A DNA stretch of 15,670 bases from a virus (Duplodnaviria > Heunggongvirae > Uroviricota > Caudoviricetes): the IMG/VR virus record IMGVR_UViG_2693429623_000009; one strand, written 5' to 3'. Shown here one piece after another: positions 1 through 15,670 of the stretch. The translations under genes and the position numbers were made by a program. The first letter of the stretch is position 1; every line of letters starts with the position of its first letter. The notes under the pieces are model-generated. The model did not search any database. It was not told the origin of the DNA and saw nothing but the letters and a program-made list of their open reading frames with translations.

Positions 1-1
1 G

Positions 2-109
2 GCGAATTACCGTCTTATATCACTGGCGCTGACATCTCCGGATGACGGGGGCAGCTGTTATCTCTGGCTCAACCGTGGGCAACCACCCGCAGTTAACCGG
101 CGACGATAA
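2..109 (+). CDS. FII: Head-tail joining protein FII-like, 3' end only (start lies upstream of the window)
   Basis: Frame 2 reads ...TSPDDGGSCYLWLNRGQPPAVNRRR then TAA at 107-109, which matches my recollection of the lambda FII C-terminus (...SPDDGGSCHLWLGRGVPPAVNRRR). It sits immediately upstream of Z, as in lambda. Confidence 0.65.
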   Translation, partial: ANYRLISLALTSPDDGGSCYLWLNRGQPPAVNRRR

Positions 110-123
110 ACGCAGGGTGAATT

Positions 124-699
124 ATGGCGATAAAAGGGCTTGATCAGGCGATTGACAATCTGAGCCGGGTTCGTAAAAACGCCATTCCGGCTGCTTCTGC
201 AATGACCATTAACCGCGTGGCCACAACGGCGATTAATCAGTCTTCGTCACAGGTTGCCCGGGAAACCAGGGTGAGACGGAAACTGGTAAAGGAACGGTCC
301 AGACTGAAACGGGCGACGGTCAGAAATCCGAATGCCAGAATTATCGTTAACCGCGGTGATCTCCCTGTGATTAAGCTGGGGATCAGAATGCTGGGGCGTC
401 GTCCGAACAGCATACTCAAAGCCGGTCAGCATCGTTATCAGCGGGCATTTATCCAGCGATTAAATAATGGGCGCTGGCATGTTATGCAACGTCTTCCCCA
501 GGCCAGATATGAGGAGGGCAATGACGACAAGGGAAGGAAAAAGCGTAATCGCCTTCCCATTCAGGTGGTGAAAATCCCGATGGCGGCCCCACTGAAACAG
601 GCATTTGATGAGAATGTTGACCGTATCCGGCGTGAACGCCTGCCTAAAGAACTGGCATACGCGCTGAAACAACAACTGAGGATTGCGATAAAACGATGA
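124..699 (+). CDS. Z: Tail completion protein Z (lambda gpZ homologue)
   Basis: 191-aa ORF whose N-terminus (MAIKGL...) and C-terminus (...[25 protein letters not shown]) resemble lambda gpZ as I recall it. Position is between FII and U, and its stop overlaps the U start (ATGA at 696-699). Confidence 0.88.
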   Translation: MAIKGLDQAIDNLSRVRKNAIPAASAMTINRVATTAINQSSSQVARETRVRRKLVKERSRLKRATVRNPNARIIVNRGDLPVIKLGIRMLGRRPNSILKAGQHRYQRAFIQRLNNGRWHVMQRLPQARYEEGNDDKGRKKRNRLPIQVVKIPMAAPLKQAFDENVDRIRRERLPKELAYALKQQLRIAIKR

Positions 700-1091
700 A
701 ACACACTGACATTCGTGCCGCAGTGCTGGATGCACTCGAGCAGCATGAACACGGGGCGACGCTGTTTGATGGTCGCCCCGTTGTTTTTGACGAAGAGGAT
801 TTTCCTGCGATCGCGGTTTATCTGACGGATGCAGAGTATACCGGTGAAGAGCTGGATGCAGATACCTGGCGGGCCACACTGCATATTGAGGTGTTTTTAC
901 CGGCACAGGTACCTGATTCGGAGCTCGATCAGTGGATGGAAAGCCGGATTTATCCGGCGATGACTGCGATCCCTGCACTGGCAGGACTGATTACCACGAT
1001 GGTTACGCAGGGCTATGAGTATCGTCGTGATGACGATATGGCGTTATGGAGCTCTGCGGATCTGACTTATTCCATTACATACGAGATGTGA
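696..1091 (+). CDS. U: Tail terminator protein U (lambda gpU homologue)
   Basis: 131-aa ORF ([15 protein letters not shown]...[10 protein letters not shown]), the same length as lambda gpU and closely similar along its length from memory. It is translationally coupled to Z. Confidence 0.9.
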
Positions 1092-1098
1092 GGACGAT

Positions 1099-1851
1099 AT
1101 GGCAACACCAAATCCCCTGGAGCCGGTAAAAGGTGCCGGTACCACTCTGTGGGTTTACAACGGCAAGGCTGATGCTTATGCAAACCCGTTGTCAGACGAT
1201 GACTGGCAGCGACTGGCTAAGGTGAAGGATCTGACGCCGGGCGAGATGACGGCTGAATCCTATGATGATAACTACCTGGATGATGAAGACGCGGACTGGA
1301 GCGCGACCGGGCAGGGGCAGAAATCTGCAGGTGATACCAGTTTTACGCTGGCCTGGAAACCGGGAGAGGAAGGCCAGAAAGGGCTTATAGGCTGGTTTGA
1401 AAGCGGCGATGTCCGGGCCTATAAAATCCGTTTTCCGAATGGCACGGTGGATGTGTTTCGTGGCTGGGTCAGCAGTATCGGTAAGGCCGTGACGGCGAAA
1501 GAAGTGATCACCCGCACGGTGAAAGTCACTAACGTGGGTAAACCTTCTGTAGCGGAAGAACGCAGCAAAATTACGCCGGTCAGTGCGATTAAGGTGACGC
1601 CGACATCCGGTACGGTGGCAAAAGGGAAAACAACCACCCTGACGGTTTCTTTTGAGCCGGAAAGTGCAACCGACAAGACGTTCAGAGCGGTTTCCGCCGA
1701 TCCGTCGAAAGCCACCATTAGTGTGAAAGATATGACAATTACGGTAAACGGCGTGGCGACAGGTAAGGTGCAGATCCCTGTGGTGAGCGGAAATGGTCAG
1801 TTCGCCGCAGTGGCTGAAGTCACCGTTACTGAAGCGGGCGCTGCAGGGTAA
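1099..1851 (+). CDS. V: Major tail tube protein V (lambda gpV homologue) with C-terminal Ig-like domain
   Basis: 250-aa ORF with a GAGG RBS just upstream. The N-terminal region ([27 protein letters not shown]...) is lambda gpV-like, and the C-terminal roughly 90 aa ([22 protein letters not shown]...[17 protein letters not shown]) has the Big_2/Ig-like pattern known for the gpV C-terminus. Confidence 0.9.
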
Positions 1852-1864
1852 ACGGAGGTAATAC

Positions 1865-2296
1865 ATGTTTCTGAAAACAGAACAATTTGAATATAACGGT
1901 GTGTCTGTCACGCTTTCCGAATTGTCTGCGCTGCAGCGTATCGAGCATCTTGCCCTCCTGAAACGGCGTGCAGAACAGGCAGAATCCAGCGGCAACCTGC
2001 AGGTAAGCGTGGAAGATCTCGTCAGAACCGGCGCGTTTCTGGTGGCGATGTCCCTGTGGCATAACCATCCACAGAAAACGCAGTCACCGTCAATGAATGA
2101 GGCCGTGATGAAGATAGAGCAGGAAGTGCTCACCACCTGGCCTGCCGATGCCATTGCCCGGGCGGAAGACGTGGTGTTGTGCCTGTCCGGGATGATCGAA
2201 GCTGTTCGTCCGGATACTGATATTACTGAAGTGGCGAAAAATAACACGCTGACTGATGATGATTTTTCTGCGGGAAAGTCTTCGACGGCGAGCTGA
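1865..2296 (+). CDS. G: Tail assembly chaperone G (lambda gpG homologue)
   Basis: 143-aa ORF (MFLKTEQFEYNGVSVTLSELSALQRIEHLALLKRRAEQ...) preceded by a GGAGG RBS. It contains the slippery heptamer near its 3' end. Confidence 0.9.
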   Translation: MFLKTEQFEYNGVSVTLSELSALQRIEHLALLKRRAEQAESSGNLQVSVEDLVRTGAFLVAMSLWHNHPQKTQSPSMNEAVMKIEQEVLTTWPADAIARAEDVVLCLSGMIEAVRPDTDITEVAKNNTLTDDDFSAGKSSTAS

Positions 2297-2736
2297 ACTT
2301 TGCCCTCAGACTGGCGCGTGAGATGGGGAGACCCGACTGGCGCGCCATGCTTGCCGGGATGACATCCACCGAATATGCCGACTGGCGCCGTTTTTACCGC
2401 ACGCATTATTTTCAGGATACCCAGCTGGATATGCATTTTTCCGGGCTGACGTACGCTGTACTCAGCCTGTTTTTTTGCGATCCGGATATGCATCCCTCTG
2501 ATTTCAGCCTGCTTGTCCCCCGGCATGAGGAAGAGCAGGTGGAGAGGCCGGATGAGGACAAAATGCTGATGCAGAAAGCGGCAGGACTTGCCGGAGGCGT
2601 CCGGTTCGGTGGGGACGGAGGGCGCGATATTTTATCGTCTGCGGATGTGGCGGATGTCATGGTGGATGATGCCGCATTAATGATGGCTTCAGCGGGGATT
2701 CCGGGAGGTGTGAGATATGTCCCAGCCGGTTGGTGA
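1865..2736 (+). CDS. T: Tail assembly chaperone G-T fusion, made by programmed -1 ribosomal frameshift at 2272-2278
   Basis: G GGA AAG lies in the G zero frame at 2272-2278. The -1 frame is open from 2278 (VFDGELNFALRLAREMGRPDWRAML...) to the TGA at 2734-2736, and the T-frame protein resembles lambda gpT. The T stop overlaps the H start. Confidence 0.85.
2272..2278 (+). other. Slippery heptamer GGGAAAG for the G to G-T -1 programmed frameshift
   Basis: X XXY YYZ motif positioned so that GGA and AAG are zero-frame codons of G, about 18 nt before the G stop. This is the same heptamer and placement as in lambda. Confidence 0.85.
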
Positions 2737-5700
2737 TCTTGTTATTGACCTGAGTCTGGATGCTGTCCGTTTCGATGAGCAGATGAGCCGGGTAAGGCGT
2801 CATTTTTCAGGTCTGGATACCGACGCCAGAAAAACCGCCAGTGCTGTTGAACAGGGCCTGAGCCGCCAGGCGCTGGCTGCACAAAAAGCCGGGATTTCCG
2901 TCGGGCAGTATAAAGCGGCCATGCGAACCCTGCCCGCACAGTTTACGGATATCGCCACGCAGCTTGCCGGTGGTCAGAATCCCTGGCTGATCCTGCTGCA
3001 ACAGGGCGGTCAGGTGAAGGACTCCTTCGGCGGGATGATCCCCATGTTCAGGGGGCTTGCCGATGCGATCACCCTGCCGATGGTCGGGGTCACCTCGCTG
3101 GCGGTGGCGACAGGTGCACTGGTGTACGCCTGGTACCAGGGAGATTCCACGCTTTCAGCGTTTAATAAAACCCTGGTTCTTTCCGGTAATCAGTCCGGAC
3201 TGACTGCCGATCGTATGCTGACTCTCTCAAGAGCCGGGCAGGCAGCAGGGCTGACGTTTAACCAGGCGAGAGAGTCACTGGCAGCCCTGGTGAATGCCGG
3301 TGTGCGTGGTGGTGAACAGTTTGATGCCATCAACCAGAGTGTCGCGCGTTTTGCGTCTGCATCCGGTGTGGAGGTGGATAAAGTCGCTGAAGCCTTCGGG
3401 AAGCTGACCACTGACCCGACGTCGGGACTGATGGCGATGGCGCGCCAGTTCCGTAACGTGACGGCAGAGCAGATTGCGTATGTTGCACAGCTGCAGCGTT
3501 CCGGAGACGAGGCCGGGGCATTGCAGGCGGCGAACGATATCGCCACGAAAGGCTTTGATGAGCAGACCCGTCGCCTGAAAGAAAACATGGGAACACTGGA
3601 GACCTGGGCGGATAAAACAGGGAAGGCATTCAAATCGATGTGGGATGCCATTCTGGATATCGGTCGTCCGGAATCCTCAGCGGATATGCTCGCCAGTGCG
3701 CAGAAGGCATTTGATGAGGCGGATAAAAAATGGCAGTGGTACCAGAGTCGGAGCCAGCGCCGCGGTAAAACCTCCTCTTTCCGGGCCAACCTTCAGGGCG
3801 CATGGGATGACCGGGAAAATGCCCGTCTGGGTCTGGCAGCGGCAACGCTGCAGTCGGATATGGAAAAAGCCGGTGAACTGGCGGCAAGGGACAGGGCTGA
3901 GCGTGAGTCGTCACAGCTGAAGTATACCGGAGAGGCGCAGAAGGCGTATGAGCGCCTGCTGACGCCACTGGAGAAATATACCGCCCGGCAGGAAGANGCC
4001 ATGCGTATGCTGCCTGCACAGTTCACCGACGTGGCCACGCAGCTTGCAGGGGGGCAGAATCCCTGGCTGATCCTGCTGCAACAGGGTGGTCAGGTTAAGG
4101 ACTCCTTCGGCGGGATGATCCCCATGTTCAGGGGGCTTGCCGGTGCGATCACCCTGCCGATGGTGGGGGCCACCTCGCTGGCGGTGGCGACCGGTGCGCT
4201 GGCGTATGCCTGGTATCAGGGCAACTCAACCCTGTCCGATTTCAACAAAACGCTGGTCCTTTCCGGTAATCAGGCGGGACTGACGGCAGATCGTATGCTG
4301 GTCCTGTCCAGAGCCGGGCAGGCGGCAGGGCTGACGTTTAACCAGACCAGCGAGTCACTCAGTGCACTGGTTAAGGCGGGGGTAAGCGGTGAGGCTCAGA
4401 TTGCGTCCATCAGCCAGAGTGTGGCGCGTTTCTCCTCTGCATCCGGTGTGGAGGTGGACAAGGTCGCTGAAGCCTTCGGGAAGCTGACCACAGACCCGAC
4501 GTCAGGGCTGACAGCGATGGCACGCCAGTTCCATAACGTGACGGCGGAGCAGATTGCGTATGTTGCTCAGTTGCAGCGTTCCGGCGATGAAGCCGGGGCA
4601 TTGCAGGCGGCGAACGAGGCCGCAACGAAAGGGTTTGATGACCAGACCCGCCGCCTGAAAGAGAACATGGGCACGCTGGAGACCTGGGCAGACAGGACAG
4701 CACGGGCATTCAAATCCATGTGGGATTCGGTGCTGGATATTGGTCGCCCGGACACTGCCCAGGGAATGCTGGAGAAAGCAGAAAAGGCTTTTGATGAGGC
4801 GGACAAAAAATGGCAGTGGTATCAGAGCCGGAGCCACCGGCGCGGTAAAACCTCAGCATTTCTTGCCAATCTCCGGGGAGCATGGGAGGACAGAGCGAAT
4901 GCGCAACTTGGGCTTTCAGCCGCCACGTTGCAGGCCGATCTTGAAAAGGCCAGAGAGATGGCAGCAAAGGACTGGGCCGAGTCTGAGGCATCACGGCTGA
5001 AATATACCGAAGAGGCGCAGAAGGCTTACGAACGGCTGCAGACGCCGCTGGAGAAATATACCGCCCGTCAGGAAGAACTGAACAAGGCACTGAAAGACGG
5101 GAAAATCCTGCAGGCGGATTACAACACGCTGATGGCGGCGGCGAAAAAGGATTATGAAGCGACGCTGAAAAAGCCGAAACAGTCCGGCGTGAAGGTGTNC
5201 CCGACGTCGGGGCTGACGGCGATGGCACGCCAGTTCCATAACGTGACGGCGGAGCAGATTGCGTATGTTGCTCAGTTGCAGCGTTCCGGCGATGAAGCCG
5301 GGGCATTGCAGGCGGCGAACGAGGCCGCAACGAAAGGGTTTGATGACCAGACCCGCCGCCTGAAAGAGAACATGGGCACGCTGGAGACCTGGGCAGACAG
5401 GACTGCACGTGCATTCAAATCCATGTGGGATGCGGTGCTGGATATTGGTCGTCCTGATACCGCGCAGGAGATGCTGATTAAGGCAGAGGCTGCGTTTAAG
5501 AAAGCAGACGACATCTGGAATCTGCGCAAGGATGATTATTTCGTTAACGATGAAGCACGGGCGCGTTACTGGGATGATCGTGAAAAAAAACGCCTGGAGC
5601 GGGATGCAGCCCAAAAGAGGGTAGATCAACAGCGTCAACAGGACAAAAATGCGCAGCAGCAGAGCGATACCGAAGCGTCACGGCTGAAATATACCGAAGA

Positions 5701-7398
5701 GGCGCAGAAGGCTTACGAACGGCTGCAGACGCCGCTGGAGAAATATACCGCCCGTCAGGAAGAACTGAACAAGGCACTGAAAGACGGGAAAATCCTGCAG
5801 GCGGATTACAACACGCTGATGGCGGCGGCGAAAAAGGATTATGAAGCGACGCTGAAAAAGCCGAAACAGTCCGGCGTGAAGGTGTATGCGGGCGATCGTC
5901 AGGAAGACAGTGCTCATGCGGCCCTGCTGACGCTTCAGGCAGAACTCCGGACGCTGGAGAAGCATGCCGGAGCAAATGAGAAAATCAGCCAGCAGCGCCG
6001 GGATTTGTGGAAGGCAGAAAGTCAGTTCGCGGTACTGGAGGAGGCGGCNNNNNNNNNNNNNNNNNNNNNNNNNNNNNNNNNNNNNNNNNNNNNNNNNNNN
6101 NNNNNNNNNNNNNNNNNNNNNNNNNCCTGAAAGACGGGAAAATCCTGCAGGCGGATTACAACACGCTGATGGCGTCGGCAAAAAAGGATTATGAGTCGAC
6201 GCAGAAAAAGCCGTCCGGTGTGAAGGTGTCTGCCGGTGAGCGCCAGGAAGACCAGGCGCATGCAGCCCTGCTGGCGCTTGAAACTGAGCTCAGGACGCTG
6301 GAGAAGCACAGCGGTGCGAATGAAAAAATCAGCCAGCAGCGCCGTGATTTATGGAAAGCGGAAAATCAGTATGTGGTCCTGAAAGAGGCCGCCACGAAAC
6401 GGCAGTTATCTGAGCAGGAAAAATCCCTGCTGGCCCATGAGAAAGAAACGCTGGAGTACAAACGCCAGCTGGCTGAGCTGGGCGACAAGATTGAACACCA
6501 GAAACGGCTGAATGAGCTGGCACAGCAGGCGGCGCGGTTTGAACAGCAGCAGAGCGCGAAGCAGGCGGCAATCAGCGCAAAAGCCCGCGGACTCACCGAC
6601 CGTCAGGCGCAGCGGGAGTCGGAAGAGCAGCGCCTTCGTGAGGTGTACGGTGATAATCCGGCTGCGCTGGCGAAGGCCACATCTGCACTGAAGAACACCT
6701 GGTCTGCGGAGGAGCAGCTTCGTGGAAGCTGGATGGCCGGGATGAAGTCCGGCTGGGGCGAGTGGGCGGAAAGTGCGACGGACAGTTTTTCGCAGGTTAA
6801 AAACGCGGCCACGCAGACCTTTGACGGTATTGCACAGAATATGGCAGCGATGCTGATCGGCAGCGAACAGAACTGGCGTGGTTTCACCCGTTCTGTGCTG
6901 TCCATGCTGACAGAGATTTTTCTGAAGCAGGCGATGGTGGGGATAGTCGGGAGTATCGGCAGCGCCATTGGCGGTGCTTTCGGTGGTGGTGCGTCTGCCT
7001 CCACGGGGACGGCCATTCAGGCTGCGGCGGCGAACTTCCATTTCGCGACCGGGGGATTTACGGGGACGGGGGGTAAATATGAACCTGCGGGGATTGTTCA
7101 TCGCGGGGAGTTTGTCTTCACGAAGGAGGCGACCAGCCGGATTGGTGTCGGCAATCTGTACCGCCTGATGCGGGGCTATGCGGAAGGTGGTTATGTCGGC
7201 GGTGCCGGAAGTCCGGCGCAGATGCGGNGCATTAATTTTAATCAGAACAATCACGTGGTGATTCAGAACGACGGCCCCAACGGGCGGGCAGGGCCGCAGC
7301 TGATGAAAGCGGTGTATGAGATGGCCCGCAAGGGGGCACAGGATGAACTCCGGCTGCAGTTGCGTGATGGCGGTATGTTATCAGGGAGCGGTGGATGA
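2717..7398 (+). CDS. H: Tail tape measure protein H (lambda gpH homologue), interrupted as assembled by N-delimited overlapping segments
   Basis: ATG at 2717 with a GGGAGG RBS, overlapping the T stop. The N-terminus (MSQPVGDLVIDLSLDAVRFDEQM...) and C-terminus (...GGKYEPAGIVHRGEFVFTKEATSRIGVGNLYRLMRGYA...RDGGMLSGSGG) are gpH-like, and the stop overlaps the M start (ATGA). Internal structure is not colinear: single N at 3997, 5199 and 7228, and an N run at 6049-6125 that breaks the frame. Total span is about 1560 codons. Confidence 0.85.
2921..5076 (+). repeat. Two tandem, in-frame diverged copies of a 1080-bp tape-measure segment (2921-3996 and 4001-5076) joined at an N (3997)
   Basis: Base-by-base comparison at offset 1080, for example 3421-3780 against 4501-4860, gives roughly 85-90% identity by eye. 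The second copy is nearly identical to lambda gpH as I recall it, and the first is a diverged allele. Confidence 0.8.
5200..6048 (+). repeat. Third overlapping tape-measure segment that re-starts about 705 bp back in the gene after the N at 5199
   Basis: 5200 to about 5450 is near-identical to 4495 to about 4745, and 5678-5885 is identical to 4991-5198. The segment then runs into the N gap. Confidence 0.8.
6049..6125. other. Assembly gap (77 N) inside the tape measure gene
   Basis: Run of n characters. The flanks overlap: 6127-6398 is a diverged copy (about 85% by eye) of 5777-6048. Confidence 0.95.
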
Positions 7399-7724
7399 AA
7401 ACCTTTCGCTGGAAAGTGAAGCCGGATATGGAGGTGAACTCGCAGCCATCGGTGCGTGAAGTGCGTTTTGGTGACGGGTACTCACAGCGTATGGCGGCAG
7501 GGCTGAATGCTGACCTGAAAACATACAGGGTGACGCTTTCCGTGACCCGGGAGGAGGCCCGGCATCTGGAAGCGTTCCTGGCAGAGCACGGTGGCTGGAA
7601 GGCATTTTTGTGGAAGCCACCCTATGCATACCGGCAGATAAAGGTGACCTGTGCCGGGTGGTCTGCGCGGGTCGGGATGTTGCGCGTTGAGTTCAGCGCG
7701 GAGTTTAAGCAGGTGGTGAACTGA
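7395..7724 (+). CDS. M: Tail tip protein M (lambda gpM homologue)
   Basis: 109-aa ORF (MKTFRWKVKPDMEV...RVEFSAEFKQVVN), the same length as lambda gpM and closely similar from memory. Start overlaps the H stop and stop overlaps the L start (TGATG). Confidence 0.9.
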   Translation: MKTFRWKVKPDMEVNSQPSVREVRFGDGYSQRMAAGLNADLKTYRVTLSVTREEARHLEAFLAEHGGWKAFLWKPPYAYRQIKVTCAGWSARVGMLRVEFSAEFKQVVN

Positions 7725-8422
7725 TGCAGGATATTCGCGAAGAAAGTCTGAACGAGTCGGTTAAGTCAGAGCAGTCACCGCGGGTGGTACTCTGGGAAAT
7801 CGACCTGACGGTACAGGGTGGTGAGCGGTATTTTTTCTGTAATGAGCTGAATGAAAAAGGGGAGCCGGTCACCTGGCAGGGGCGTAAGTATGAGGCATAC
7901 CCGATTGACGGCAGCGGCTTTGAGATGAACGGCCGGGGCAGCAGTGCCAGACCGTCGCTGACGGTGTCCAATCTGTTCGGTCTGGTCACCGGGATGGCGG
8001 AAGACCTGCAGAGTCTGGTGGGGGCCACGGTGGTCCGCCGCCGGGTGTATGCCCGTTTTCTGGATGCGGTGAATTTCGTTGCGGGCAATCCGGAGGCGGA
8101 CCCGGAGCAGGAGCTGAGTGACCGCTGGGTGGTGGAGCAGATGTCGCAGCTGACAGCCATGACGGCCTCGTTTGTGCTGGCTACACCGACCGAGACGGAC
8201 GGGGCGCTGTTTCCCGGTCGCATCATGCTGGCGAACACCTGTATGTGGGATTACCGGGGAGATGAATGCGGGTATAACGGTCCTGCGGTGGCGGATGAGT
8301 TCGACAACCCCACCACGGATATCCGTAAGGACAGATGCAGCAAGTGCATGCGCGGGTGTGAACTGCGCAGGAATGTCGGCAATTTTGGCGGTTTCCTTTC
8401 CATTAATAAACTTTCGCAGTAA
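7724..8422 (+). CDS. L: Tail tip protein L (lambda gpL homologue)
   Basis: 232-aa ORF (MQDIREESLNE...GNFGGFLSINKLSQ), the same length and synteny as lambda gpL, with the C-terminal Cys cluster (CSKCMRGC). Confidence 0.9.
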   Translation: MQDIREESLNESVKSEQSPRVVLWEIDLTVQGGERYFFCNELNEKGEPVTWQGRKYEAYPIDGSGFEMNGRGSSARPSLTVSNLFGLVTGMAEDLQSLVGATVVRRRVYARFLDAVNFVAGNPEADPEQELSDRWVVEQMSQLTAMTASFVLATPTETDGALFPGRIMLANTCMWDYRGDECGYNGPAVADEFDNPTTDIRKDRCSKCMRGCELRRNVGNFGGFLSINKLSQ

Positions 8423-8432
8423 ATCCCGGTTT

Positions 8433-9176
8433 ATGACACAGACTGAATCAGCGATTCTGGCACATGCCCGGCGGTGTGCGCCTGCGGAGTCGTGCGGCTT
8501 CGTGATAAGCACGCCGGAGGGGGAGCGGTATATCCCTTGTGTGAATATTTCCGCAGAGCCGGAGGCGTATTTTCGTATCGCACCGGAAGACTGGCTGCGG
8601 GCAGAGATGCAGGGGGAGATTGTGGCACTGGTCCACAGTCATCCCGGTGGGCTGCCCTGGCTGAGCGAGGCTGACCGGCGGTTGCAGATAAAAAGCGCAC
8701 TGCCCTGGTGGTTGGTCTGCCGGGGTGACATTCACAAATTCCGCTGTGTGCCACATCTGACAGGACGGCGCTTTGAGCACGGGGTGACGGACTGTTACAC
8801 GCTGTTCCGGGATGCTTATCATCTGGCGGGGACTGAAATGCCGGATTTTCATCGCGAGGATGACTGGTGGCGCAACGGTCAGAACCTTTACCTGGACAAT
8901 ATGGCGGTCACCGGCTTTTACCGGGTGCCCCTGTCCTCTGCACAGGCGGGCGATATTCTGCTGTGCTGCTTTGGTGCTTCGGTACCGAACCATGCCGCCA
9001 TTTACTGCGGCAACGGTGAGCTGCTTCACCATCTGCCTGAACAACTGAGTAAACGGGAGAGGTATTCCGAAAAATGGCAACGACGAACGCATTCAGTCTG
9101 GCGTCACCGCCACTGGCACGCATCTGCCTTCACGGGGATTTACAACGATTTGGCCGCCGCCTCAGCCTGTATGTGA
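8433..9176 (+). CDS. K: Tail tip assembly protein K (lambda gpK homologue) with JAB/MPN-like and NlpC/P60-like motifs
   Basis: ATG at 8433, 11 nt after the L stop (MTQTESAILAHARRCAPAESCGF...). It contains an HSHP...SEAD motif (JAMM-like) and a C-terminal Cys/His region. The six-frame ORF extends upstream to 8172 but that part overlaps L. The 3' end overlaps I by 103 nt, as in lambda. Confidence 0.82.
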   Translation: MTQTESAILAHARRCAPAESCGFVISTPEGERYIPCVNISAEPEAYFRIAPEDWLRAEMQGEIVALVHSHPGGLPWLSEADRRLQIKSALPWWLVCRGDIHKFRCVPHLTGRRFEHGVTDCYTLFRDAYHLAGTEMPDFHREDDWWRNGQNLYLDNMAVTGFYRVPLSSAQAGDILLCCFGASVPNHAAIYCGNGELLHHLPEQLSKRERYSEKWQRRTHSVWRHRHWHASAFTGIYNDLAAASACM

Positions 9177-9754
9177 ACACGGCAGCGGAAGCCATTCGCG
9201 CCCTGTCGATGCAGATGCCGGGCTTTCGCCGTCAGATGAACGAAGGCTGGTACCAGATACGTATTGCCGGTTATGACACGGCACCGGAGGCGGTGTACGC
9301 CCGTCTTCACGAACAGCTGGGTGAGGGAACGGTCATCCACATTGTGCCGCGACTGGCCGGGGCCGGAAAGGGTGGACTGCAGATTGTGCTGGGGGCGGCA
9401 GCCATCGTGGGCTCTTTCTTCACTGCCGGGGCATCAATGGCGTTATGGGGTTCAGCCCTGGCAGCCGGTGGTTTTTCTGCCACCACGATGCTGTTTTCAC
9501 TTGGAGCCAGCATGATTCTGGGCGGTGTGGCCCAGATGCTGGCCCCGAAGGCAAAAACACCGGATTACCGCGCAACGGATAACGGCAGACAGAACACGTA
9601 CTTTTCCTCACTGGATAACATGATTGCCCAGGGGAACCCGATGCCGGTGCCTTACGGGGAAATGCTGGTTGGCTCCCGCCGTATATCCCAGGACATCAGC
9701 ACCCGTGATGAAGGCGGGGGCGGAAAGGTCGTGGTTATCGGGCGGCAGGGGTAA
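9074..9754 (+). CDS. I: Tail tip assembly protein I (lambda gpI homologue)
   Basis: 226-aa ORF starting inside the K 3' end, matching the lambda K/I overlap arrangement. It has a Gly/Ala-rich hydrophobic central segment and ends ...GGGGKVVVIGRQG. Confidence 0.82.
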   Translation: MATTNAFSLASPPLARICLHGDLQRFGRRLSLYVNTAAEAIRALSMQMPGFRRQMNEGWYQIRIAGYDTAPEAVYARLHEQLGEGTVIHIVPRLAGAGKGGLQIVLGAAAIVGSFFTAGASMALWGSALAAGGFSATTMLFSLGASMILGGVAQMLAPKAKTPDYRATDNGRQNTYFSSLDNMIAQGNPMPVPYGEMLVGSRRISQDISTRDEGGGGKVVVIGRQG

Positions 9755-9768
9755 AAAGAATAAAAAAA

Positions 9769-9800
9769 TCCCGCAGTGATCGCGGACAGGAACTGCGGGA
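9769..9800 (-). terminator. Candidate intrinsic terminator for a leftward (minus-strand) transcript
   Basis: An 8-bp stem (TCCCGCAG at 9769-9776 pairs with CTGCGGGA at 9793-9800) with a 16-nt loop. On the + strand it is preceded by A7 at 9762-9768, so on the minus strand the hairpin is followed by a U run. Confidence 0.4.
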
Positions 9801-9967
9801 GAGTTACGAAGATTAAGTGTAAGGAATTATTCTTATATCACGACAAAAAAATTAACGCAGAGAAATTATACGCGCCACAGTCAGTTTGTGAAAATGTGAA
9901 GATATTCAGAATTTTTATGCCATTACCGGTTTTAACCAACAGGATTATCGGTGGGCATGAAAGAAAA

Positions 9968-10000
9968 CCCCGGTATCTGCTGATACCGGGGTTTCTCTTT
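9968..10000. terminator. Perfect 10-bp GC-rich hairpin with a 4-nt loop, flanked by an A-rich 5' side and T-rich 3' side (bidirectional terminator shape)
   Basis: CCCCGGTATC at 9968-9977 pairs with GATACCGGGG at 9982-9991, loop TGCT, followed by TTTCTCTTT and preceded by AAGAAAA. Confidence 0.45.
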
Positions 10001-10097
10001 AGCATGGCAGAAATGTGTTTCATGCTTTTCGGGCGAAGGATATCCGACTTCTGTACGGAATGGCAAGTGGCGGTTAATTTATTCAGGGGAAGGCTGT

Positions 10098-15427
<5,330 letters not shown>

Positions 15428-15449
15428 AATATTTATAACCCCAATAAAT

Positions 15450-15476
15450 GGCGTCAGGAATGACGCCTTTTTTATT
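15450..15476 (+). terminator. Rho-independent terminator downstream of J
   Basis: GGCGTCA at 15450-15456 pairs with TGACGCC at 15461-15467, loop GGAA, followed by TTTTTTATT. Confidence 0.7.
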
Positions 15477-15497
15477 GCAGAAAAGCGAGAGGTAATT

Positions 15498-15670
15498 ATG
15501 CGTAAAGTTTGTGCAGCCATTTTGTCCGCAGCCATCTGTCTGGCCGTATCCGGTGCGCCTGCATGGGCGTCTGAACATCAGTCCACGCTGAGCGCGGGGT
15601 ATCTTCATGCCCGGACCAACGTTCCCGGCAGTGATGATCTGAACGGGATTAACGTGAAATACCGTTATGA
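15498..15670 (+). CDS. lom: Ail/Lom-family outer membrane protein (lambda lom homologue), 5' end only
   Basis: GAGAGG RBS then ATG at 15498. The N-terminus has a signal peptide (MRKVCAAILSAAICLAVSGAPAWA) followed by ...LSAGYLHARTNVPGSDDLNGINVKYRYE, which resembles lambda Lom and the Ail/PagC/OmpX family. Position immediately downstream of J is the same as in lambda. The ORF runs off the window end. Confidence 0.8.
   Translation, partial: MRKVCAAILSAAICLAVSGAPAWASEHQSTLSAGYLHARTNVPGSDDLNGINVKYRY

What the first reader, a model, noticed from the sequence alone, without database searches (positions are those of the whole stretch)
2921..6398. Tape measure gene is about twice its expected length from in-frame overlapping segments joined at N bases
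H spans 4682 nt (about 1560 codons) against about 853 aa for lambda gpH. The gene is a chain of overlapping pieces. A diverged allele covers the first 1280 nt to the N at 3997, then a 1080-bp in-frame repeat re-starts at the MRMLPAQFTD motif in a near-lambda allele. After the N at 5199 the sequence jumps back about 705 bp, and after the N run at 6049-6125 it jumps back about 270 bp into the diverged allele. Junctions coinciding with N characters, and two alleles alternating, point to a scaffold or chimera of paralogous lambdoid prophages. Tape measure length sets tail length, so a real duplication would predict a proportionally longer tail, which is why this matters.
Basis: partly seen in the sequence, partly recalled or inferred. 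Interest (0 to 1): 0.5.

Follow-up and report, generated by a model that had tools for sequence, protein, structure and literature searches.

The report
Scaffolding artefact inflates tape measure gene
The apparently double-length phage tail "ruler" gene is not real: two stray contigs from other lambda-like prophages were placed in a 12-base assembly gap, and removing them restores an ordinary 857-codon gene.

Summary
N characters sit at 3997, 5199, 6049-6125 and also 7228. At each one the sequence jumps back within gene H, by 1080, 705 and about 272 nt at the first three.

The window is eight contigs joined by Ns. Contigs A (1-3996), D (6126-7227) and E (7229-) are one H allele. In 36 of 36 related IMG/VR contigs, in hundreds of complete E. 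coli genomes and in an N-free sibling contig, A is followed by 12 nt (GCTGAATAAGGC) and then D. D is then followed by 10 nt and E. Restoring these bridges gives a 2574-nt, 857-aa gene that is collinear with lambda gpH (853 aa).

The inserted contigs B (3998-5198) and C (5200-6048) are fragments of two further H alleles. Each is about 99% identical to normal-length tape measure genes elsewhere. The A|D break lies next to a 48-nt stretch identical in all three alleles, which is a typical repeat-induced contig break.

Corrections to the finding:
- There are three alleles, not two.
- The third junction is out of frame.
- Gene J is inflated in the same way.

Nothing biological is new here, so interest is low.

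The parts
2717..3996 (+). H (tape measure), allele 1, nt 1-1280; this is the 3' end of contig A (window 1-3996)
   Evidence: ORF start at 2717. Contig A is 100% identical to L006 and 99.9% or more identical to L023, L037, L036 and L032. Pfam TMP_2.
3997..3997 (.). Single N: contig boundary A|B. The flanks are not collinear (H nt 1280 is followed by H nt 202).
3998..5198 (+). Contig B: misplaced fragment of a second, mosaic lambda-like H allele (lambda H nt 202-1384)
   Evidence: 96.4-98.6% identical to lambda H apart from a 202-nt patch. Single-piece 1201-nt matches at 99.2% inside normal tape measure genes of complete E. coli genomes. Its last 208 nt are identical to C 5678-5885.
5199..5199 (.). 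Single N: contig boundary B|C (jump back of 705 nt)
5200..6048 (+). Contig C: misplaced fragment of a third, lambda-type H allele (lambda H nt 699-1547)
   Evidence: 96.3% identical to lambda with no gaps. 99.4% to E. coli ACN002. 99.6% to sibling scaffold L023, where it lies in a lambda-collinear, normal-length H.
6049..6125 (.). 77-N scaffold gap: boundary C|D (jump back of about 272 nt; the frame is not preserved)
6126..7227 (+). Contig D: H allele 1, nt 1293-2394. It is the true continuation of A after 12 missing nt (GCTGAATAAGGC).
   Evidence: 100% identical to L037, L036, L033, L023, L022 and L004. The A-12 nt-D arrangement is seen in 36/36 contigs and as one alignment in complete genomes.
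7228..7228 (.). Single N standing for 10 missing nt (CGGGCGGAAG): contig boundary D|E
7229..7398 (+). H allele 1, nt 2405-2574 with the stop codon; this is the 5' end of contig E (7229-12157)
   Evidence: E is 100% identical to L004 and L022. The repaired H is 2574 nt and 857 aa with a single terminal stop.
124..2736 (+). Upstream tail genes Z (124-699), U (696-1091), V (1099-1851), G (1865-2296) and T (2323-2736), with the G-T slippery heptamer GGGAAAG at 2272-2278
   Evidence: Pfam Minor_tail_Z, Phage_tail_U, Phage_TTP_12+Big_2, Phage_TAC_2 and Phage_tail_T. Heptamer found.
7395..8422 (+). Downstream tail tip genes M (7395-7724) and L (7724-8422)
   Evidence: Pfam Phage_min_tail and Phage_tail_L. 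Same gene order in 8 public loci.
10098..15670 (+). Gene J region, inflated by the same artefact. Contig E's tail (10997-12157) is repeated as contig G's head (12729-13889). The lambda-like J fragment F (12159-12727) sits between single Ns at 12158 and 12728. The stretch 14308-14414 is repeated at 14436-14542 across the 21-N run.

Best explanation
The 4.7-kb H gene is a product of draft-genome scaffolding, not of biology. The sample held at least three lambda-like tail modules. They were most likely paralogous prophages in one E. coli-type genome.

Shown:
- The assembler broke the allele-1 H gene into contigs A, D and E. The A|D break lies beside a 48-nt stretch identical in all three alleles.
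- Fragments of two other H alleles (contigs B and C) sit in the 12-nt A|D gap, joined with placeholder Ns.
- Removing N+B+N+C+77N and restoring the 12-nt and 10-nt bridges gives an ordinary 857-aa lambda-type tape measure gene.

Inferred:
- The scaffolder linked the contigs through read pairs that map ambiguously among the alleles.
- Which software did this, and whether the alleles come from one genome or from mixed strains.

Biologically, this is a standard Z-U-V-G-T-H-M-L-K-I-J lambdoid tail operon. Its H protein would act as the usual tail-length ruler, giving a lambda-sized tail.
For: - All four discontinuities in H, and all seven in the window, fall exactly on N characters, and the flanks are non-collinear at each.
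- A-end700 joined to D-start700 aligns as one piece over 1412 nt in complete E. coli genomes, so exactly 12 nt are missing.
- 36/36 IMG/VR contigs containing the last 68 nt of A continue with GCTGAATAAGGC and then the start of D.
- Sibling contig L022 has no N and carries A+12+D+10+E. The repaired gene is 2573/2574 identical to it, 857 aa, and 77% identical to gpH end to end.
- Complete genome CP056470.1 shows the same 12-nt and 10-nt spacings and an 857-aa H.
- In 8/8 loci encoding an identical gpM, the upstream H is 853-859 aa; in one of them it is split 571+324.
- B and C are about 99% identical to segments of normal-length H genes elsewhere. C lies in a lambda-collinear H in sibling scaffold L023.
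- The copies within the window are only 82.7% identical to each other.
- D starts at a 48-nt block identical among the three alleles.
- Probes across junctions 1 and 2 hit the best-ranked complete genomes only as two pieces spanning 1081 and 687 nt, which is the normal gene order and not abutting.
- E. coli genomes commonly hold several such modules: median 2-3 places per genome, up to 13.
- The literature describes prophage misassembly and artefactual duplications in E. coli drafts (PMC4134206).
Against: - No reads were available, so the misjoin is inferred from comparison and not seen directly.
- The source record was not found, so its assembly method and status are unknown.
- Junctions 1, 2 and 4 happen to keep the reading frame (3 of 4), which looks superficially purposeful. 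This is expected by chance about 11% of the time (my arithmetic, from a 1/3 chance per junction).
- Only the top-ranked records of the junction-probe searches were listed, so a rare natural abutting junction among thousands of records is not strictly excluded.
Confidence: 0.96

Rival explanations
1. The same artefact, but the three H alleles come from different strains or phages in a mixed or metagenomic sample and were co-assembled. They would then not be paralogous prophages in one genome.
For: Some contigs carrying the identical end of A come from metagenome-type IMG/VR ids (3300029xxx). No single complete genome among the listed hits carried all three alleles at 99% or more.
Against: The closest sibling contigs have isolate-type ids (26xxxxxxxx) and begin at the same base as the window. 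Sibling scaffold L023 also links allele 1 and the C-type lambda-like module on one scaffold. Multiple lambdoid tail modules per E. coli genome are the norm.
Confidence: 0.12
2. A real, expanded tape measure gene built by recombination among prophage H alleles. The Ns would be merely low-quality base calls, and the tail would be about 1.8 times longer.
For: Junctions 1 and 2 (single Ns) preserve the H reading frame. Tail length is set by a ruler protein in lambda (Katsura & Hendrix 1984, as cited in PMC3185693), so such a gene would in principle be functional.
Against: - A single ambiguous base would leave the flanks collinear; they are not collinear at any N.
- The N at 7228 replaces 10 nt.
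- The 77-N junction breaks the frame, with an immediate stop at 6128-6130.
- The copies are 83% diverged, and each is about 99% identical to alleles in separate, normal-length genes.
- No relative shows the arrangement: 36/36, 8/8 and all listed complete-genome hits collapse to about 2.6 kb.
- J shows the same pattern, with a near-perfect 1161-nt overlap of contigs E and G.
Confidence: 0.01
3. Contigs were ordered against a reference phage or genome and then concatenated with N spacers, rather than linked de novo by read pairs.
For: Within H the pieces are sorted by their start coordinate on the reference gene (A nt 1, B 202, C 699, D 1293, E 2405). PMC4134206 shows that reference-ordered E. 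coli drafts misplace prophage contigs.
Against: In J the order F (lambda J nt about 1789) before G (J nt about 900) is not sorted by start. The N runs vary in length (1, 77, 21), which looks like gap-size estimates rather than fixed spacers.
Confidence: 0.25

Closest known systems
Bacteriophage lambda gpH (tail length tape measure protein; Pfam TMP_2 PF06791 + Tape_meas_lam_C PF09718)
   Same: The repaired gene is 857 aa against 853 aa and 77% identical end to end. It has the same two Pfam domains and the same G-T-H-M-L neighbourhood, with the GGGAAAG slippery site in G.
   Different: As written in the window the gene is 4682 nt long and contains Ns, two foreign allele fragments and a frame break. 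That difference is an assembly artefact and not a property of the gene.
Repeat-induced scaffold misjoins and artefactual duplications in prophage regions of draft E. coli assemblies (for example NA114 and the alternative-allele contigs discussed in PMC4134206)
   Same: Paralogous prophage sequence is placed wrongly, giving apparent differences that are not biologically relevant. The paper warns explicitly about artefactual duplications in phage regions.
   Different: Here the misplaced pieces are small (1.2 and 0.85 kb). They lie inside a single gene and partly keep the reading frame, which mimics an in-frame gene expansion.
Tail-length ruler studies of lambda gene H (Katsura & Hendrix 1984)
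   Same: They are the reason a real expansion of H would matter: the ruler protein determines tail length (PMC3185693). That in-frame changes in H alter tail length proportionally is my own recollection of those studies.
   Different: Such an altered H gene would be one continuous sequence of a single allele. The window instead holds diverged alleles (83% identical) joined at Ns.

Membership tests
Lambda-type tape measure protein (gpH family) | N-terminal TMP_2 domain (PF06791) | tested here: met
   Repaired H residues 54-256, E = 5e-69. Fragment B also matches, E = 1e-65.
Lambda-type tape measure protein (gpH family) | C-terminal Tape_meas_lam_C domain (PF09718) | tested here: met
   Repaired H residues 631-705, E = 6e-20.
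Lambda-type tape measure protein (gpH family) | End-to-end collinearity with gpH and a comparable length (about 853 aa) | tested here: met
   Repaired H is 857 aa and aligns 1-856 to gpH 1-852 at 77% identity. This is not met by the sequence as written (4682 nt with Ns), which is the artefact.
Lambda-type tape measure protein (gpH family) | Position between the G/T chaperone genes and M-L in the tail operon | tested here: met
   Pfam assignments of the neighbouring ORFs. Same order in 8 public loci. GGGAAAG slippery site at 2272-2278.
Lambda-type tape measure protein (gpH family) | Sets tail length in the virion | not testable with these tools
   Needs electron microscopy of induced phage.
Scaffold misjoin / artefactual duplication | Every discontinuity coincides with an N placeholder, and the flanks are non-collinear | tested here: met
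   7 of 7 N runs.
Scaffold misjoin / artefactual duplication | The sequences flanking the inserted block are contiguous in independent assemblies | tested here: met
   A-12 nt-D in 36/36 IMG/VR contigs, as a single 1412-nt alignment in complete genomes, in L022 without any N and in CP056470.1.
Scaffold misjoin / artefactual duplication | The inserted pieces belong to other copies of the repeat family that are normal elsewhere | tested here: met
   B at 99.2% and C at 99.4-99.6% inside normal-length tape measure genes.
Scaffold misjoin / artefactual duplication | Contig breaks lie at stretches shared exactly between the repeat copies | tested here: met
   D begins at a 48-nt block identical in the three alleles. 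B ends within 208 nt that are identical to C.
Scaffold misjoin / artefactual duplication | Read-level inconsistency (depth, mate pairs) at the junctions | not testable with these tools
   No reads available, and the source record was not located.
Genuine in-frame internal duplication of a tape measure gene | Uninterrupted sequence and an open reading frame through all junctions | tested here: not met
   There is an N at every junction, and a stop at 6128-6130 in the upstream frame after the 77-N run.
Genuine in-frame internal duplication of a tape measure gene | Repeat copies derive from the same allele (near-identical), or the arrangement is shared by relatives | tested here: not met
   The copies are 82.7% identical. 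No relative has the arrangement.

The most novel reading that the evidence does not exclude
The source strain really carries a mosaic tape measure gene of about 1560 codons, built by recombination among three prophage H alleles, and would make tails about 1.8 times lambda length. The Ns would be base-calling failures at the recombination joints.
Probability: 0.01. Interest if true: 0.5.

Novelty: not a real feature. Interest (0 to 1): 0.05.

Why it matters
It matters mainly for data quality. An automated annotator or tail-length predictor reading this scaffold would report a giant or broken tape measure gene and a duplicated J gene. Viral-genome catalogues built from draft scaffolds can carry such chimeras. 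Sibling scaffolds L023, L031 and L036 also contain single-N joins; in L023 and L036 the sequence on the two sides of the N is not collinear with a single phage genome.

The practical rule shown here is that single-N placeholders in lambdoid prophage regions mark overlapping or misplaced paralogous contigs, not single bad bases.

Biologically, the corrected locus is an ordinary lambda-like tail module. It tells us nothing new about tail-length control.

Tried and rejected
1. Finding the source record. A junction-spanning pattern in viral contigs gave 0 hits. The exact 68-nt end of A in genome contigs gave 0 hits. The N in a pattern does match a literal N in the window scope, so the source is probably not held in the viral collection.
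2. A real duplication. This was rejected on the grounds listed under the rival explanations.
3. A single N as a simple ambiguous base. This was rejected because the flanks are non-collinear at all five single Ns, and the one at 7228 replaces 10 nt.
4. Looking for one complete E. coli genome holding all three alleles at 99% or more. The listed top hits for allele 1, B and C are different genomes, so this direct demonstration was not obtained.
5. Naming the scaffolding program from the N conventions. My recollection is that some scaffolders write one N for a non-positive gap estimate. I did not verify this in the literature and do not rely on it.
6. Side lead: Rfam searches of the window (gathering threshold) and of the I-J spacer (E-value mode) gave nothing above threshold.
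Full report
**Observation**

The window contains 103 N characters in seven runs: 3997, 5199, 6049-6125, 7228, 12158, 12728 and 14415-14435. The apparent H gene runs from the ATG at 2717 to the stop at 7398, which is 4682 nt.
- 2913-3996 = 3993-5076: offset 1080, 82.7% identity.
- 4495-4782 = 5200-5487: offset 705, 94.4%.
- 4985-5198 = 5672-5885: offset 687, 99.1%.
- 5777-6048 = 6127-6392: 82.7%, a jump back of about 272 nt across the N run.

Four details need correcting.
- Junctions 1 and 2 are in frame, but after the 77-N run the upstream frame meets a stop at 6128-6130 and H resumes in another frame.
- A fourth junction inside H, at 7228, was missed.
- The inserted pieces are two different alleles, so three alleles are present.
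- Gene J is affected in the same way.

**Anatomy**

Splitting the window at its Ns gives eight segments: A 1-3996, B 3998-5198, C 5200-6048, D 6126-7227, E 7229-12157, F 12159-12727, G 12729-14414 and a last segment 14436-15670. I mapped them to lambda and to the best phage hit, PhiR5_1.
- A, D and E are one allele, which I call allele 1. They cover H nt 1-1280, 1293-2394 and 2405 to the end.
- B is a mosaic lambda-like allele covering lambda H nt 202-1384. It is 96-99% identical to lambda except for a 202-nt patch.
- C is a lambda-type allele covering H nt 699-1547, at 96.3% identity with no gaps.

At every N the flanks are non-collinear. The Ns are therefore contig-boundary placeholders, not ambiguous base calls.

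**The decisive comparisons**

1. I joined the last 700 nt of A to the first 700 nt of D. This joined sequence aligns as a single piece over 1412 nt in hundreds of complete E. coli genomes at 98.5% identity. Exactly 12 nt are therefore missing between A and D.
2. The last 68 nt of A occur in 36 IMG/VR contigs. In 36 of 36 the next bases are GCTGAATAAGGC (or a one- or two-base variant of it), followed by the start of D.
3. Several of these contigs are near-identical siblings of the window. A is 100% identical to L006, and 99.9% or more to L023, L037, L036 and L032. D is 100% identical to six contigs. E is 100% identical to L004 and L022. L022 has no N at all and reads A + 12 nt + D + 10 nt + E.
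4. I restored the two bridges (GCTGAATAAGGC and CGGGCGGAAG). The result is a 2574-nt ORF of 857 aa with a single terminal stop. It is 2573/2574 identical to the L022 gene and aligns 1-856 to gpH 1-852 at 77% identity. It carries Pfam TMP_2 and Tape_meas_lam_C.
5. In eight public loci that encode an identical gpM, the upstream tape measure gene is 853-859 aa; in one of them it is split 571+324. The complete genome CP056470.1 shows A at 99.4%, then 12 nt, D at 98.0%, then 10 nt, and E at 97.8%.
6. B matches normal tape measure genes in complete genomes over its full 1201 nt at 99.2%. C matches at 99.4%. C also matches sibling scaffold L023 at 99.6%, where it lies in an 8.2-kb stretch collinear with lambda from V to J.
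7. Probes made from the written junctions (A-end + B-start, and B-end + C-start) hit the best-ranked complete genomes only as two pieces spanning 1081 and 687 nt. That is the normal gene order; the halves do not abut.
8. Whole-window and H-region searches collapse onto about 11.7 kb and about 2.8 kb of the target records, against 15.6 kb and 4.9 kb of query.

The length accounting is exact: 4682 - (1+1201+1+849+77) + 12 + (10-1) = 2574.

**Mechanism**

Contig D begins at a 48-nt block that is identical in all three alleles. B ends inside 208 nt that are identical to C. These are the places where a short-read assembly graph cannot tell paralogous copies apart. That explains both the contig breaks and the false links that a scaffolder would draw between contigs of different prophages.

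E. coli genomes typically hold two to three lambda-type tail modules, and up to 13. The literature documents prophage misassembly in draft E. coli genomes and warns of artefactual duplications in phage regions (PMC4134206).

What is shown: the pieces, their true neighbours, and the shared-sequence breakpoints. What is inferred: that read-pair ambiguity (or reference-guided ordering) placed B and C in the gap, and that the alleles are paralogous prophages of one genome rather than mixed strains.

**Rivals**

A genuine expansion is contradicted on five counts:
- There is an N at every junction.
- The frame breaks after the 77-N run.
- The copies are 83% diverged from each other.
- Each piece is about 99% identical to alleles in separate, normal genes.
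- No relative shows the arrangement.

The evidence leaves it about 1%. A mixed-sample origin of the alleles, or reference-guided ordering, would change only the route to the artefact and not the verdict.

**Comparison with the known, and novelty**

The corrected gene is an ordinary member of the lambda gpH family, in an ordinary Z-U-V-G-T-H-M-L-K-I-J operon. The doubling is not a real feature. Interest is low, apart from a cautionary note for catalogues built from draft scaffolds.

**Noticed in passing**

- J is inflated by the same artefact.
- Allele-1 J carries a 22-nt frameshifting deletion between CTGACGG direct repeats.
- The I-J spacer holds an sRNA-like promoter-terminator unit on the minus strand with no Rfam match.

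Noticed in passing
window 10098-15670 (Ns at 12158, 12728 and 14415-14435): The host-specificity gene J is inflated by the same scaffolding artefact. Contig E's tail (10997-12157) and contig G's head (12729-13889) are nearly identical (99.8%; at least 399 nt exact at the ends). A 569-nt lambda-type J fragment (97% aa identity to lambda J residues 597-785) is wedged between them. The stretch 14308-14414 is repeated at 14436-14542 across the 21-N run.
   Followed up: yes
window after 11963 (and the duplicate copy near 13695): Allele-1 J lacks 22 nt that are present in PhiR5_1 and L015. In those relatives the missing stretch is flanked by a CTGACGG direct repeat. The loss shifts the frame at about J residue 627 (tblastn frames 3 to 2). 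Sibling contigs L004 and L036 are 100% and 99.9% identical over this contig, so they presumably share the deletion. In CP056470.1 no J gene is called in that interval. This suggests a defective (cryptic) prophage tail tip gene.
   Followed up: partly
window 9755-10097 (spacer between I and J): A 343-nt AT-rich spacer, also left without a called gene in most related loci. On the minus strand it has a near-consensus sigma-70 promoter (TTCACA-16-TATAAT, 9892 to 9865) followed by a GC-rich hairpin and a T run (9799 to 9762). That would be an sRNA-like unit of about 90 nt. A second strong hairpin lies at 9965-9988. There is no Rfam match above threshold. [quoted passage not shown] I could not test this because no PasB sequence was available.
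   Followed up: partly
L023 (N at 5910 of the reoriented locus), L036 (N at 462 and 12034), L031 (N at 12117): Sibling IMG/VR scaffolds of close relatives also contain single-N joins. In L023 the N joins the allele-1 tail module (broken off in gene L) to the V-to-J region of a second, lambda-like prophage. In L036 the sequence is likewise non-collinear across both Ns. L031 was not mapped. Chimeric joins between lambdoid prophages therefore seem to recur in this set of assemblies.
   Followed up: partly
window 1-34, and the starts of L022, L032, L037 and L023: The window and four sibling contigs begin at exactly the same base. In L036 an N lies five bases before that point (N at 462, A from 467). 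The left end of contig A is therefore itself a recurrent assembly breakpoint, presumably another repeat boundary near the FII/Z junction. Bases 1-34 do not align to PhiR5_1, lambda or the complete-genome hits.
   Followed up: no
window 4783-4984 (within contig B): Allele B is a natural mosaic. It is lambda-like on both sides, but it has a 202-nt patch whose protein resembles allele 1 (…KAFDEADKKWQWYQSRS…) in place of the 184-nt lambda-type patch seen in C. The same mosaic occurs at 99.2% identity in complete genomes. This illustrates recombination between H alleles in nature without any change in gene length.
   Followed up: partly
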